Of a stretch of DNA of 64,000 bases, positions 23,521 to 43,059 are shown in pieces. The DNA is from Candidatus Micrarchaeia archaeon (GTDB lineage Archaea > Micrarchaeota > Micrarchaeia > Micrarchaeales > Micrarchaeaceae): assembly GCA_049964795.1 (NCBI GenBank), contig JBMFWY010000001.1:1-64000 (forward strand), given 5' to 3'. The first letter of the stretch is position 1, and each line of letters opens with the position of its first letter. The position numbers and the translations under genes were made by a program. The notes under the pieces are model-generated. The model was not told the DNA's origin and did not search any database. It worked only from the letters and a program-made list of their open reading frames with translations.

Positions 23521-23629
23521 AGCCCCAGGAGGGAATTGAACCCTCGACCTCCTGTTTTCTTGCCTTCTTGGTTGAGTATTTTTCCAAAAAGTTTACGAGA
23601 CAGGCGCTCTACCACTGAGCTACTGAGGC
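23521..23629 (-). tRNA. tRNA-Thr(CGU) with 37-nt intron at canonical position 37/38 (intron 23557-23593); CCA not encoded
   Basis: Reverse complement folds as GCCTCAG/CTGGGGC acceptor, GCTC/GAGC D-stem, CCTGT-CT-CGT-A^A-ACAGG anticodon arm, GAGGG-TTCAATT-CCCTC T-arm, discriminator U; 72 nt after splicing. Confidence 0.93.
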
Positions 23630-39050: not shown

Positions 39051-40264
39051 GTTTCTTAGTAAAGTAGTATTGCTTTTTTCAGCTTTTAACTTGATTGCTG
39101 CAGCACGCGCTGCGGTGTTGTGAAAAAGGCTATTGTGAAAATTCCTGCTTGGAATTGGATGCAGTCCCGAGTTGTGCAAAAGAGAGATAGCTGATTGCTT
39201 TTAACTTGAAGCCGATTCCAGTCGATGCTGCTGGAGGGTACTGCTATCAGGTTCCGACAGCCATGCAAGTTTGCTCTACGGCTTCGTAGGGCGGCGTACG
39301 GCTCAGTAACACGTGGCTAATCTACCGTAAAGAGAGGGATACCCTTGGGAAACTGAGGTTAATACCTCATATGCTAGAGCATCTGGAAGGAGCTCTAACA
39401 AAAAAGGTTGCAAATTGCAGCATTACCGCTTTACGATGAGGCCGCGGCGGATCAGGCAGATGGCGGGGTAACGGCCCACCATACCAATAACCCGTAGGGG
39501 ATGTGAGAGCATGAGCCCCGAGAAGGGCACTGAGACAAGGGCCCTAGCGCTACGGCGTGCAGCAGGCGCGCAAACTCCACAATGCGCGTAAGCGTGATGG
39601 GGGGAACCTGAGTGGCTGACTAACGTCAGCCTTTTGCCAAGTATAGCAAGCTTGGAGAATAAGTGCTGGGCAAGACCGGTGGCAGCCGCCACGGTAATAC
39701 CGGCAGCACAAGTGGTATCCACGATTATTGGGCTTAAAGCGCCCGTAGCTGGCTGATGCCGTCTCATGTGAAATATTGGCGTTCAACGTCAATGCGAGCA
39801 CGAGATACCCATCGGCTAGGGAGTGGGTTGGGTCAGGAGTACTTATGGGGGAGGGGCTAAATCCTATAATCCTATAAGGACTAACGGTGGCGAAGGCGCC
39901 TGACCAGAACACATCCGACAGTGAGGGACGAAGGCTAGGAGAACGAATCGGATCAGATACCCGAGTAGCCCTAGCAGTAAATCATGCAGACTCTGGTGTT
40001 GCATGCATCTCGAATGCATGCAGTACCGTAGCGTAAGCGTTAAGTCTGCCGCCTGGGGAGTACGGCCGCAAGGTTGAAACTTAAAACAATTGGCGGGGGA
40101 GCACACAAGGGGTGGATGCTGCGGTTTAATTGAACCCAACGTCGGAAATATTACCAGAAGCGACGGCAGTGTGAAGGTCAGACTAAAGATCTTACCTGAC
40201 AAGCCGAGAGGTAGTGCATGGCGATCGTCAGCTCGTGGTGTGAACTGTTCGGTTAAGTCCGGTA

Positions 40265-40787
40265 AGCTGTTGAGTGAGGCTATGACTAGAAAGCTAAAAC
40301 TGGATCCAGATACCTGCTACATGCTTGGCATGTACAGCTGTAGCATGCGCTCTCCGATTTCCATAAGCACAGCCAAGAGGGAGCTGGTTGAAAAGTTTAC
40401 CAAGATAGCGCTTGAATTAGGCGTAGAGCCTGAAAAGGTGCGCATCGAAAGCATGCAAAATGGCATGCAAAAGGTATTTTTTTACCACTCCAAGCTCGAA
40501 AAGCTGTTCAAGAATGCGCTCGAGCGCAGAAGCGTTATATTCTCGCGCAAGAATGCATGCGCGCTAAGCTATGTAGCTGGCGTATTTGACAGCAACGGCG
40601 GAAAAGACCGCTTTGGGCTCTTCATAAAAAAGCTTGATCCTGCAAACGCGGTGATCATGGAGAACCTTGGCTTGCATGTGTGGGAATCAGGAGGCAGGCA
40701 TTACATATTGAATGCAAAAGTTTTCGTTACGCTTATTGCTGGATACAGCGTAATGCTTTCGTACGAGCAACATTCTTCAGCCCGGTA
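40265..40787 (+). mobile_element. 523-nt archaeal BHB-type rRNA intron, inserted between E. coli-equivalent A1101 and A1102
   Basis: Removing 40265-40787 restores GTTAAGTCCGGTAACGAGCGAGACC; boundaries form a CCGG/CCGG helix with two TAA bulges and a GCTG-TT-GAGTG/CATTC-TT-CAGC terminal stem. Confidence 0.92.
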
Positions 40788-40788
40788 A
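40282..40788 (+). CDS. Intron-encoded LAGLIDADG homing-endonuclease-like protein (168 aa, degenerate motifs)
   Basis: ATG 17 nt inside the intron; motif 1 YMLGMYSCS, motif 2 YVAGVFDSNG. Confidence 0.8.
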   Translation: MTRKLKLDPDTCYMLGMYSCSMRSPISISTAKRELVEKFTKIALELGVEPEKVRIESMQNGMQKVFFYHSKLEKLFKNALERRSVIFSRKNACALSYVAGVFDSNGGKDRFGLFIKKLDPANAVIMENLGLHVWESGGRHYILNAKVFVTLIAGYSVMLSYEQHSSAR

Positions 40789-41328
40789 CGAGCGAGACCT
40801 TCGCTAACAGTTGCCACCAGCTTAGAGATAAGTTGAGCACTCTGTTAGGACCGCCTCCGTTTAAGGAGGAGGAAGGAGAGGGCTACGATTCGTCAGTATG
40901 CTCTGAATCTTCTGGGCTACACGCGGCATACATAGGTTGGTACAATTGGATGCAATGCCGAGAGGCAAAGCCAATCCCCTAAAACCAACCGAGGTTCGGA
41001 TTGAGGGCTGAAACTCGCCCTCATGAAGCTGGAATCCCTAGTAATCGCTTGTCACTATCGAGCGGTGAATATGTCCCCGCTCCTTGCACACACCGCCTGC
41101 CAGATCACCCAAATGAGGCTCTAACGAGGCAATAGCTTTGCTGTTTTCGAGTTAGAGTTTCGTAAGGAGGGTCAAGGCATAACAAGGCATCCGTAGGGGA
41201 ACCTGCGGATAGATCACCTTTACAAAAAAATGTGTGCGTGGCTATTCTCTGCATTAATTCTCGGGACTGCTCCTCTTCTTCTTTCTTTTTTAATATAAGC
41301 GCAAGAAAAACAGGATTAGCTGTGCATA

Positions 41329-43059
41329 TCATGCGCTTATGTATATGAACTGCTTTACTTTGCCTTCATCCTTATCGAAAGTTGCGAATCCAAACCTCTC
41401 AAGCTGGACTACTTCGCCTTTTTTGAGGCTCTCAGCAAAAGACTCGATGTATCCATTGCTTTCCTGCAAGCTGTCCTGCAGGAAATTCTCATTATCATCG
41501 ACCAGATCCTTTGGAATAAGGATCTTGCAATCGAACTTGCTTTCTTCCGGTACCCATTGTATCTTTTTTATGCTTTTTGCCTCGCCAGCGCCCATCTTTA
41601 CAACTTCGGCGTGCACTGCTTCTTTTGAGATTGACAGTACCCTCAAGTCTGCGAGCTCCTTGAGCCTTACATTAGTACCCATGTCAAGCTCATTTGCGTC
41701 CGAACCGCTTATATAAAATGTATTTCCTACTGCATAGCTCCTTGAGCCGAGATCGTTCGATGGATGAAGCTTCAACGAAACCCCTTTGGGCAGTGCTTCC
41801 ACATTTTCAACGATCACCTTTACAGGATCTGCGACATAGAAAAGCCTTTTCGCTGAAGGATCGACTAGTTTCTTATTTTCGGCATAGAGCAGCGAAAGAT
41901 CTACAACGCTGTTGGTCATGCTCATCCCAAAGCGCATCACAAATTTCTTTATTGCTTCTGGCTTTATGCCGCGCCTGCGAAGCGCAGATATAGTTATGAG
42001 GCGCGGGTCGTCATAGCCGCTTATCAAACCCTTATTTATAAGATCATTGAGCTTGCGTTTTGAGGTGAGGGAGCCTTTTACTTCTAGCCTAGCTTCATGA
42101 TGCACTCTTGGAATTCTCAAATTGAGTGCTTTGAGTATCTCTACGTATATCTCCCCCCTCAGCTCATACTCCTTGCTGCGCATCGCGTCTGTAACGCCGT
42201 GCAGGGAGTCCATTACAGGAGTATTGAAATCGTAAGTAGGCCATACAATATACTTATCCCCTTGTCTGTAGTGCATATGCTTCTTTATACGCATAATTGT
42301 AGGATCGCGCATTACCGTATTGTTTGATGACATGTCGCCTCTGAAGCGCAGTATTGCCTGACCCTCATCGTAATCGCCCTCAAGCATCTCTTGGAACATC
42401 ATCATATTTTCAGATTCGGGGTTCTTTGAATGGGGGCATGAAAGCCCTTTCATTCTGTAGCTCTTTATAGTTTCGGGAGGGCATGTGCAAACATAGGCTT
42501 TGCCCATCTTTATCAGCTGCCGCGCATATTCGTAAAGCTTCTCTATGCTGTCGCTTGCATAGTATTCCTTGTCAAACTTTATACCCAGCCAGTCAAGGTC
42601 TCTTTTAATTGCGTCAACAAATTCCTGCGATTCCTTTTCGGGGTTGGTGTCATCAAAATACAGGAAAAGCTTGCCTTCGTAGATCCTGGCAAATTCCTGC
42701 TCCATGAAAACAACTTTTGCATGACCTATGTGCATGTATCCGCTCGGTTCAGGGGCGAATCTTGTGGAGAAGTTGCCTTTCACGGCGCCTTTCAGCTCCA
42801 TCCTTGGAGCAGAGGTGTTTTTTACTTTTTCTGAATACTCTTGTTCAAATTCCTCCTTGTATTTGCTGTATTCCTCCTCCTGAGAGGCCTTGCTCATAGC
42901 ATTGACTTCTTCTACAACCTTTTGGATCTCAAGCTGAAGGCTTTTTATGTCGGCAGATTTTCCTACTTTTGAAAGCACTTTGCTGAATACGCTGCCGGGA
43001 TTGGCTTTGCCTCCGTATTCCACTGCATTTTTTATTGCATACTTTCTAGCAAGCTTCAT
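41329..43059 (-). CDS. gltX: Glutamate--tRNA ligase (archaeal type)
   Basis: RFAPEPSGYMHIGH, FDDTNP, WPTYDF, TSKRKL, QLERFGF. Confidence 0.96.
   Translation of the reverse strand: MKLARKYAIKNAVEYGGKANPGSVFSKVLSKVGKSADIKSLQLEIQKVVEEVNAMSKASQEEEYSKYKEEFEQEYSEKVKNTSAPRMELKGAVKGNFSTRFAPEPSGYMHIGHAKVVFMEQEFARIYEGKLFLYFDDTNPEKESQEFVDAIKRDLDWLGIKFDKEYYASDSIEKLYEYARQLIKMGKAYVCTCPPETIKSYRMKGLSCPHSKNPESENMMMFQEMLEGDYDEGQAILRFRGDMSSNNTVMRDPTIMRIKKHMHYRQGDKYIVWPTYDFNTPVMDSLHGVTDAMRSKEYELRGEIYVEILKALNLRIPRVHHEARLEVKGSLTSKRKLNDLINKGLISGYDDPRLITISALRRRGIKPEAIKKFVMRFGMSMTNSVVDLSLLYAENKKLVDPSAKRLFYVADPVKVIVENVEALPKGVSLKLHPSNDLGSRSYAVGNTFYISGSDANELDMGTNVRLKELADLRVLSISKEAVHAEVVKMGAGEAKSIKKIQWVPEESKFDCKILIPKDLVDDNENFLQDSLQESNGYIESFAESLKKGEVVQLERFGFATFDKDEGKVKQFIYISA

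What the first reader, a model, noticed from the sequence alone, without database searches (positions are those of the whole stretch)
40259..40788. 16S intron whose protein stop codon is cut by splicing and rebuilt by circularisation
Seen: both boundaries read CCGG-TAA. The self-complementary CCGG copies form the 4-bp central helix and each TAA is a 3-nt bulge. Established: archaeal EndA cuts after the second bulge base and excised introns are ligated into circles. Cutting TA|A at both sites restores the exon (CCGGTA+ACGAG). The intron ORF's only stop, TAA at 40786-40788, is the 3' bulge itself, so the linear excised intron is a non-stop message and circle ligation (TA + A at 40265) regenerates TAA in frame. 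The likely RBS (GAGTGAGG) lies largely inside the terminal stem. Inference: proper termination on the excised intron depends on circularisation, so the circular RNA is the functional mRNA. A LAGLIDADG-bearing 16S insertion has, from recall, been reported in ARMAN-2; whether this stop-codon design was noted should be checked.
Basis: partly seen in the sequence, partly recalled or inferred. Interest (0 to 1): 0.85.

Follow-up and report, generated by a model that had tools for sequence, protein, structure and literature searches.

The report
Intron stop codon straddles splice site
A protein-coding intron in the 16S rRNA gene of a tiny ARMAN-like archaeon ends its reading frame exactly on the splice site, but related introns show that this is a quirk of a few lineages rather than proof that a circular RNA is the messenger.

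Summary
Window 40265-40787 is a 523-nt bulge-helix-bulge intron at E. coli position 1101 of the 16S rRNA gene. Both boundaries read CCGG-TAA. The 168-codon ORF (40282-40788) ends on the TAA of the 3' splice site.

The terminal stem is well supported: 95% of cells paired, 8 of 15 pairs with compensatory changes. The exon-side closing helix is missing, so the motif is a relaxed HBh'. The genome encodes an ARMAN-2-type epsilon2 EndA and RtcB. RNA contigs read across the exon-exon junction.

The functional inference is not supported. Among 49 homologous introns at this site, only 4 (2 of 24 genera) end on the bulge. In 24 the ORF runs through the splice site and stops 17 nt into exon 2; in 21 it stops inside the intron. 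The 3' bulge is TAA in only 23 of the first 46 scored. The rebuilt TAA follows automatically from two identical bulges, and the unspliced precursor already carries it. I favour translation on nascent pre-rRNA. No circle could be tested.

The protein has an I-DmoI-like fold, lacks the catalytic acidic residues, is under purifying selection, and is found across the order, inside the intron or free-standing.

The parts
39215..41222 (+). 16S rRNA gene, intron included
   Evidence: Rfam RF01959, 1313 bits, model positions 1-1478
39215..40264 (+). Exon 1. Its last base corresponds to E. coli 16S position 1101.
   Evidence: cmscan alignment. blastn to an E. coli rrs plus its annotation: window 40206-40264 = locus 1301-1359, rrs starts at 259.
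40259..40262 (+). CCGG, exon strand of the 4-bp central helix H
   Evidence: Pairs with 40782-40785 in the MFE fold. Columns 25-28 with 577-580 are paired in 18 of 18 introns.
40263..40265 (+). 5' bulge UAA. The inferred EndA cut is after 40264.
   Evidence: Unpaired in the fold. TAA in 44 of 46 related introns. The cut position is inferred from the canonical BHB rule.
40265..40787 (+). Intron, 523 nt
   Evidence: An RNA contig skips 523 nt with 7-nt ambiguity (X1). Contig ends at 40265 continue with exon-2 letters in X23 and X24.
40266..40281 (+). 5' strand of the intron-side helix h' / terminal stem
   Evidence: Pairs with 40766-40781. 8 of 11 stem pairs show changes on both sides across 18 introns.
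40272..40279 (+). SD-like box GAGUGAGG (GAGUGAU in most relatives), inside the stem
   Evidence: Sequence, alignment A1, pairing. Its role as a ribosome-binding site is inferred.
40282..40788 (+). ORF of 168 codons plus TAA. It encodes a two-domain LAGLIDADG-fold protein without catalytic acidic residues.
40766..40781 (+). 3' strand of the terminal stem. It also encodes the last codons of the ORF.
40782..40785 (+). CCGG, intron strand of central helix H
40786..40788 (+). 3' splice-site triplet UAA, which is the ORF's stop codon. The inferred cut is after 40787.
   Evidence: Sequence. Not closed by an exon-side helix; it pairs with 40253-55 in the MFE fold.
40788..41222 (+). Exon 2
40805..40807 (+). 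Exon triplet TAA, 17 nt after the 3' cut. The equivalent triplet closes the ORF in 24 related introns. It is out of frame here.

Best explanation
Window 40265-40787 is an archaeal bulge-helix-bulge intron of the relaxed HBh' kind. It lies at 16S rRNA position 1101 (E. coli numbering) in a small genome close to Ca. Micrarchaeum (ARMAN-2).

The intron encodes a 168-aa, two-domain, I-DmoI-like LAGLIDADG-fold protein. The protein has lost the catalytic acidic residue of both motifs, is under purifying selection, and is conserved across the order.

The ORF fills the intron so completely that its ends are written on the two strands of the terminal stem. In this genus a frame change near the C-terminus makes the frame end on the UAA of the 3' splice site. 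In most relatives the frame runs through the splice site and ends in exon 2.

The overlap of stop and bulge is therefore a by-product, not a device.

Most likely mechanism (inferred, not shown):
1. Ribosomes load on the SD-like box and AUG of the nascent, unspliced pre-rRNA before the 3' strand of the stem is transcribed.
2. They terminate at the intact TAA (here) or at the exon stop (relatives).
3. The stem and the central CCGG/CCGG helix then form and bury the start region.
4. The epsilon2 EndA cuts, and RtcB joins the exons and closes the intron into a circle.
5. The circle carries a TAA at its junction simply because both bulges read UAA.
For: Identity of the intron:
- Rfam places a 524-nt insertion in the 16S gene.
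- In the central helix plus stem, 95.2% of cells are paired, against 25-47% when partners are slid. 8 pairs change on both sides, and 0 of 500 shuffles reach any measure.
- One RNA contig in X1 joins 40258 to 40782. Three contigs in X23 and X24 run from 40265 into exon-2 letters.
- The EndA is 389 aa and matches 4fz2 at E 1.3e-170 over its full length. That enzyme is described as broad-specificity and able to cut HBh' (passages of PMC6379350).
- RtcB is present.

The overlap is a by-product:
- Of 49 introns at the same site, the stop lies at -2 in 4, at +17 in exon 2 in 24, and inside the intron in 21.
- The stop position changes at least 9 times on the tree.
- The 3' bulge is TAA in 23, AAA in 21, TTA in 1 and ATA in 1 of the first 46 scored; the 3 introns resolved later have TTA.
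- The last 6 residues of the model have pLDDT below 50, and they vary with the compensatory stem changes within the genus.

The precursor as template:
- All 24 run-through frames close 17 nt into exon 2.
- As circles, 6 of the 23 run-through introns with both ends in hand have an endless frame. In 8 others the frame closes only 11 to 95 nt past the junction.
- The SD-like box is paired in the stem that splicing needs. The duplex energy is -31 kcal/mol.

The protein is made and matters:
- dN/dS is 0.11-0.37 in 8 pairs.
- 181 of 248 genomes of the order have it, and 74 of 86 good-quality ones.
Against: - No experiment or read data show which RNA is translated. The single read-laying run used assembled contigs, which cannot show circles or their absence.
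- The link between run-through frames and the exon stop rests on only 1-2 independent contrasts on the tree, so it cannot be tested.
- Several circles would close the frame at or next to the junction. These are TA|A in g1 and g35, a TAG made only by ligation (T|AG) in two g36 introns, and a stop one codon past the junction in six introns of g18, g25 and g55. That is somewhat more than I would guess by chance.
- Translation of a pre-rRNA is itself unproven in archaea.
- The exon-side helix of the BHB is missing, and the MFE fold pairs the 3' UAA with exon bases. The exact cut sites are therefore inferred.
- The RNA contigs could come from close relatives.
Confidence: 0.55

Rival explanations
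1. The excised intron is translated only as a circle, RtcB ligation rebuilds the TAA, and the circular RNA is the functional mRNA.
For: - The geometry is real: cuts inside the two UAA triplets leave the linear intron without a stop, and the circle has TAA in frame.
- EndA and RtcB are present.
- 28 of 49 related introns have no complete stop inside the intron.
- In g36 a TAG would exist only in the circle.
- Six run-through introns would stop one codon after the junction.
Against: - The arrangement is kept in only 4 of 49 introns, 2 of 24 genera.
- 6 circles would have endless frames, and 8 would add 4 to 32 codons.
- The precursor holds the same TAA.
- The SD-like box stays inside a -31 kcal/mol stem in the circle.
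- The C-terminal tail is unconstrained.
- No circle was observed, because it could not be tested.
Confidence: 0.15
2. The position of the stop has no consequence. The ORF is read from whatever form is at hand (precursor, linear or circular), and ribosomes that reach an end or go round are rescued.
For: - The stop position is labile, with at least 9 changes.
- The tail is disordered and variable.
- Endless circles make up 6 of the 12 run-through introns whose length is a multiple of three. That gives no sign of selection against them.
Against: - Purifying selection shows that the protein matters, so wasteful non-stop translation should be costly in a 0.7-Mb genome.
- The buried start region argues against translation after the stem has formed.
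Confidence: 0.2
3. The ORF is a decaying relic of a homing endonuclease gene and is no longer translated, so the stop is irrelevant.
For: - Catalytic residues are missing.
- The Pfam score is below the cut-off.
- One relative, L129, has a premature stop.
Against: - dN/dS is 0.11-0.37.
- The frame is open in 48 of the 49 introns and in the free-standing copies.
- The model is confident, with pLDDT 92.3.
- The protein is present in 57 of 60 genera.
Confidence: 0.04
4. The insertion is not spliced. It stays in the mature rRNA or marks a fragmented 16S.
For: None was found. No raw reads were available.
Against: - RNA contigs join the exons.
- The BHB core and stem are conserved, with covariation.
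- The insertion interrupts a universally conserved 16S segment.
Confidence: 0.03

Closest known systems
Archaeal rRNA BHB introns with LAGLIDADG ORFs (I-DmoI in the Desulfurococcus mobilis 23S gene; 16S introns of Thermoproteales such as the one encoding I-Tsp061I)
   Same: - A protein-spliced intron in an rRNA gene, recognised through a bulge-helix-bulge core.
- The ORF nearly fills the intron.
- The protein is a monomer with two LAGLIDADG-type domains. The best fold matches are I-DmoI (TM about 0.6) and I-Tsp061I.
   Different: - The site is 1101. That is not among the loci listed for Thermoproteales (374, 548, 722, 781, 901, 907, 908, 919, 978, 1093, 1205, 1213, 1391; passages of PMC4496867).
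- The motif is a relaxed HBh'.
- The catalytic acidic residues are absent.
- The intron is inherited largely vertically across an order rather than patchily.
- The ORF often lacks its own stop.
16S rRNA introns reported in ARMAN-2, Mia14 and related clones
   Same: The lineage and gene are the same. The paper states that these 16S genes possess introns (passage of PMC5498576). This genome's EndA is nearly the ARMAN-2 enzyme.
   Different: The passages I read do not describe the ORF, the splice-site structure or the stop codon. Baker et al. 2010 was not held, so I could not check it.
Nuclease-dead LAGLIDADG proteins with host functions (bI3 maturase, WhiA)
   Same: The LAGLIDADG fold is kept, the catalytic residues are lost and selection is maintained. 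Both appear among the fold matches (2ab5, 3hyi).
   Different: No group I intron is present for the protein to assist, and there is no added HTH domain. The function here is unknown.
Eukaryotic circular RNAs whose ORF is closed by a stop formed at the back-splice junction (e.g. circ-ZNF609)
   Same: The idea that ligation creates or completes the stop codon of an ORF.
   Different: That case rests on experiments; I cite it from recall, having seen only the listing and the start of the abstract. Here the same stop already exists in the precursor, and translation of the circle is unshown.

Membership tests
Archaeal bulge-helix-bulge intron | 4-bp central helix with a 3-nt bulge after it on each strand | tested here: met
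   CCGG/CCGG is paired in 18 of 18 introns. The 5' UAA is bulged, and the 3' triplet follows the helix.
Archaeal bulge-helix-bulge intron | Intron-side closing helix h' | tested here: met
   11 pairs, 93.4% of cells paired, 8 pairs with changes on both sides.
Archaeal bulge-helix-bulge intron | Exon-side closing helix h (strict hBHBh') | tested here: not met
   U40258 faces C40789 and G40257 faces G40790, and neither can pair. RNAalifold and the MFE fold offer only non-canonical alternatives. This makes the motif a relaxed HBh'.
Archaeal bulge-helix-bulge intron | Host enzymes able to cut relaxed motifs and to ligate | tested here: met
   The EndA is 389 aa and matches the epsilon2 enzyme 4fz2 at E 1.3e-170. 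RtcB scores 568 bits.
Archaeal bulge-helix-bulge intron | Intron absent from the mature RNA, exons joined | tested here: met
   One RNA contig skips 523 nt, and 3 contig ends read into exon 2. These are contigs at 95% likeness or more, so a close relative cannot be excluded.
Archaeal bulge-helix-bulge intron | Excised intron circularised | not testable with these tools
LAGLIDADG homing endonuclease | alpha-beta-beta-alpha-beta-beta-alpha fold, in two copies | tested here: met
   AF2 model with pLDDT 92.3. Foldseek matches I-DmoI at E 8e-6, TM 0.60.
LAGLIDADG homing endonuclease | Pfam family score above the curated cut-off | tested here: not met
   LAGLIDADG_3 scores 17.1 bits against a cut-off of 22.5. 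8 of 33 members match at E up to 0.1.
LAGLIDADG homing endonuclease | Acidic catalytic residue just before the final Gly of each motif | tested here: not met
   Motif 2 reads AGxFD-x-x-G. The position aligned to the E of the FDAEG motif of PI-PfuI is variable, and is N105 here. Motif 1 has no conserved acidic residue. That this E (E250) is catalytic in PI-PfuI is recalled.
LAGLIDADG homing endonuclease | Cleavage of the intron-less site and homing | not testable with these tools
   This needs a nuclease assay.
Circular RNA acting as mRNA with a junction-made stop | Frame closed only after ligation | tested here: not met
   This holds for the excised forms, but the precursor carries the same TAA.
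Circular RNA acting as mRNA with a junction-made stop | Arrangement kept among homologues | tested here: not met
   4 of 49 introns.
Circular RNA acting as mRNA with a junction-made stop | Circle exists and is on ribosomes | not testable with these tools
   No raw RNA reads were available.

The most novel reading that the evidence does not exclude
In this genus and in g35 the only stop of the intron ORF is split by EndA and re-formed by RtcB. In g36 a TAG that is not written in the DNA arises only at the circle junction. If these circles are translated, they would be natural prokaryotic messengers whose stop codon is made by RNA ligation. Six sister introns would then be endless frames read round and round.
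Probability: 0.12. Interest if true: 0.85.

Novelty: new variant of a known kind. Interest (0 to 1): 0.5.

Why it matters
Which RNA serves as the messenger for proteins encoded in archaeal rRNA introns has never been settled. This intron family offers natural variants that give different answers for different templates. The precursor predicts tails ending ...PGNERDxx. Circles predict ...PGK, ...PG or endless products. Metaproteomes or ribosome profiling of acid-mine communities could therefore decide the question.

The family also shows a homing-endonuclease fold that has lost its catalytic residues yet is kept under selection across a whole order of ultrasmall archaea. It sits either inside the 16S gene or free-standing, in several cases just behind the 16S gene. 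That points to a domesticated function tied to the rRNA.

For this window alone, the stop on the splice site is an ordinary consequence of an ORF squeezed into a structured intron.

Tried and rejected
- **RNA cover of the intron.** None of the four RNA runs laid (X24, X22, X23, X1) covers 40287-40755. These are contigs, so this says nothing about the intron RNA or a circle.
- **Run shares.** The shares of sampled words were 0.00-0.08, and I draw no habitat from them.
- **Association test.** All 24 run-through frames have an exon stop at +17, against 1 of the 14 introns with a -10 stop. On the tree this reduces to 1-2 independent contrasts, so I do not use it as a test.
- **Word-based protein search.** It gave only 5 relatives, without names or Pfam domains. 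The full HMM scan gave 143 representatives.
- **Pfam C2_SHIP1-2_first hit.** E 0.01, below the cut-off. I take it as spurious.
- **ARAGORN.** It found no tRNA in the window, although Rfam did.
- **Free-standing copies.** Duplex folds of their flanks gave no clear BHB. I did not pursue this.
- **Literature.** Searches found no description of this ORF or of a stop on the splice site in archaeal rRNA introns. The library lacks most older subscription papers, and supplements are closed, so this is no proof that it is not in print. Baker et al. 2010 and Kjems and Garrett 1991 were not held.
Full report
**What is there**

Rfam places an archaeal 16S rRNA gene at 39215-41222 on the + strand (1313 bits). 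It carries a single long insertion in the loop after ...GUUAAG.

The sequence reads CCGG-TAA at 40259-40265 and again at 40782-40788. Removing 523 nt anywhere inside this 7-nt repeat restores the conserved ...GUCCGGUAACGAGCGAGACC.

In that register:
- The intron is 40265-40787.
- The cuts fall after the second base of each UAA.
- That rule follows from the canonical tRNA case: 5 bp of anticodon stem ending at position 31, plus 4 bp, plus 2 bulge bases, gives position 37/38. This is established knowledge; the BHB definitions are in the passages of PMC7714728 and PMC6379350.

A blastn match to an annotated E. coli rrs puts window base 40264 at 16S position 1101. That position is not among the Thermoproteales loci listed in PMC4496867, the nearest being 1093 (passages).

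**Structure**

The minimum-energy fold shows these features:
- CCGG 40259-62 pairs with CCGG 40782-85.
- The 5' UAA is bulged.
- A terminal stem then forms: 40266-69 with 40778-81, 40272-76 with 40771-75, 40279-81 with 40766-68, and further pairs.
- The duplex energy of the two ends is -31 kcal/mol.
- The SD-like GAGUGAGG lies in this stem, and the AUG sits in a 3-nt internal loop.

I tested the structure on an alignment of 18 homologous introns, using the 15 pairs of the central helix and the stem:
- They are paired in 95.2% of cells, against 25-47% when the partners are slid by 1-3 columns.
- 8 pairs change on both sides.
- 0 of 500 shuffles reach any measure.
- The central helix itself never covaries, because one strand is rRNA.

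No helix closes the 3' triplet on the exon side. In the MFE fold, 40786-88 pair with UUA 40253-55. The motif is therefore a relaxed HBh', not a strict hBHBh'.

**Machinery and RNA evidence**

- The genome has one splicing endonuclease of 389 aa. It matches the ARMAN-2 epsilon2 enzyme 4fz2 at E 1.3e-170 over its full length.
- That type is described as cutting relaxed hBH and HBh' motifs (passages of PMC6379350).
- RtcB is present.
- In RNA-derived contigs, one contig of run X1 joins 40258 to 40782. It skips 523 nt, with 7 letters fitting either side.
- One contig of X24 and two of X23 end at 40265 and continue with CGAGCGAGA(CC), which is exon 2.
- These are contigs at 95% likeness or more, so they may come from close relatives. 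They cannot show a circle.

PMC5498576 states that the 16S genes of ARMAN-2, Mia14 and a related clone possess introns (passage). I found no description of the ORF or of its stop. Supplements are closed and older papers are not held.

**The protein**

The ORF (40282-40788) encodes 168 residues. Its relation to LAGLIDADG enzymes is as follows:
- Pfam LAGLIDADG_3 scores below the cut-off (17.1 against 22.5 bits).
- An AlphaFold model built on 33 homologues is confident (pLDDT 92.3, pTM 0.88).
- The model matches I-DmoI best (E 8e-6, TM 0.60). Next come I-Tsp061I, the bI3 maturase, PI-PfuI and WhiA.

The catalytic residues are missing:
- In the alignment of 33 proteins, the invariant residues are Y13, G16, F39, D103, G106 and S156.
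- A profile search of the PDB aligns the family's AGlFDasG with the AGLFDAEG of PI-PfuI.
- The position of that glutamate (by recall, the catalytic E250) is variable in the family and is N105 here.
- Motif 1 has no conserved acidic residue.

The gene is nonetheless under purifying selection. dN/dS is 0.11-0.37 in 8 pairs, and one further pair is saturated. Free-standing copies are included.

It is a small, separate family: 143 representatives at E up to 0.001 among 1.84 billion proteins.

**Comparative test of the stop codon**

The protein is found in 35 of 41 related genomes. In the order as a whole it is found in 181 of 248 genomes, in 74 of 86 good-quality ones and in 57 of 60 genera. These tallies include two unpublished genomes that I did not otherwise use.

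I examined 135 loci: all 35 and 100 more from the top. Of these, 49 carry the ORF inside an intron at exactly this 16S site, and 86 carry it elsewhere.

Relative to the 3' cut, the first base of the stop lies at:

| Position | Introns | Notes |
|---|---|---|
| +17, in exon 2 | 24 | 14 genera |
| -10 | 14 | |
| -2, the bulge | 4 | the three genomes of this genus, and L056 of genus g35 |
| -11 | 2 | |
| -30 | 2 | |
| -33, -41, -60 | 1 each | |

Further points from the same comparison:
- In the first 46 introns the 3' triplet is TAA in 23, AAA in 21, TTA in 1 and ATA in 1. In the three introns resolved later it is TTA.
- On a tree of 46 intron proteins, the stop position changes at least 9 times.
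- Against its relatives, this genus has four extra bases shortly before the stem (alignment). They shift the frame by one, so that it reads the bulge.
- The tail this produces (...HSSAR...HSPAR...HSRAR) varies with the compensatory changes in the stem. It is disordered in the model.

**Which RNA is read**

In all, 28 of the 49 ORFs have no complete stop inside the excised intron.

For the 23 run-through introns with both ends in hand, the circle reading gives:

| Circle reading | Introns |
|---|---|
| Endless frame | 6 |
| Stop one codon after the junction | 6 |
| TAG made by the ligation itself (T\|AG; L074, L075) | 2 |
| Stop 17 nt on, overlapping the ATGA of the start | 4 |
| Stops at 11, 20, 35, 44 and 95 nt | 5 (one each) |

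- The precursor closes all 24 run-through frames 17 nt into exon 2.
- Endless circles make up 6 of the 12 run-through introns whose length is a multiple of three. That gives no sign of selection against them.
- The stem needed for splicing buries the SD-like box in every excised form.

Together these points favour translation on the nascent, unspliced transcript before the 3' strand of the stem exists. Stem formation, cutting and ligation would follow. This is inference.

The apparent link between run-through frames and the exon stop reduces to 1-2 independent contrasts. The junction-proximal stops in six genera keep the circle model alive at low odds.

**Verdict**

The structural reading is largely right, although the motif is the relaxed kind.

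The rebuilt TAA is an automatic result of two identical bulges, and the same TAA exists before splicing.

What deserves attention is the family as a whole. It is a nuclease-dead, order-wide LAGLIDADG-fold protein whose gene switches between an intron in the 16S gene and a free-standing place at least 13 times on the protein tree. Its intronic copies often borrow their stop from the exon.

Noticed in passing
L017, L031, L032, L006, L009, L010, L018, L025 (loci of related genomes): In 8 of the first 17 non-intronic loci, the homologous ORF lies on the same strand about 130-1200 nt behind the 3' end of a 16S gene. In L017, L031 and L032 the 1101 site of that 16S gene is uninterrupted. On a FastTree of 135 proteins, intronic and free-standing copies interleave with at least 13 switches.
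   Followed up: partly
L074 and L075 (genus g36): The intron is 512 nt and the 3' triplet is UUA. The ORF runs on to the exon stop at +17. In a circle, the last intron base T and the first two bases AG would form a TAG that is not written in the DNA.
   Followed up: partly
L008, L022, L034, L052, L086, L094: These six introns have lengths that are multiples of three and no in-frame stop. As circles they would carry an endless reading frame.
   Followed up: no
L129 against L056 (genus g35): The two sister introns have identical ends. L129 is one base longer, and its frame stops 60 nt before the 3' cut, while L056 ends on the bulge TAA. This may be a decaying copy or an assembly error.
   Followed up: no
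window 23521-23629, - strand: Rfam finds a tRNA whose 71 model positions span 109 bases (61.7 bits), yet ARAGORN reports no tRNA in the window. It is probably an intron-bearing tRNA gene with an unusual intron.
   Followed up: no
window 41223-43059: No 23S gene follows the 16S gene. A converging 576-aa ORF (41329-43059, - strand) starts about 100 nt behind the 16S 3' end. It carries a HIGH-like motif, so it may be a class I aminoacyl-tRNA synthetase, but I did not check this with any tool.
   Followed up: no
window 40252-40255 with 40786-40789: The exon bases GUUA can pair with the UAAC of the 3' splice site (MFE fold). In relatives with an AAA triplet, three of these pairs remain possible. 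This could be an unusual exon-side helix or a competing fold.
   Followed up: no
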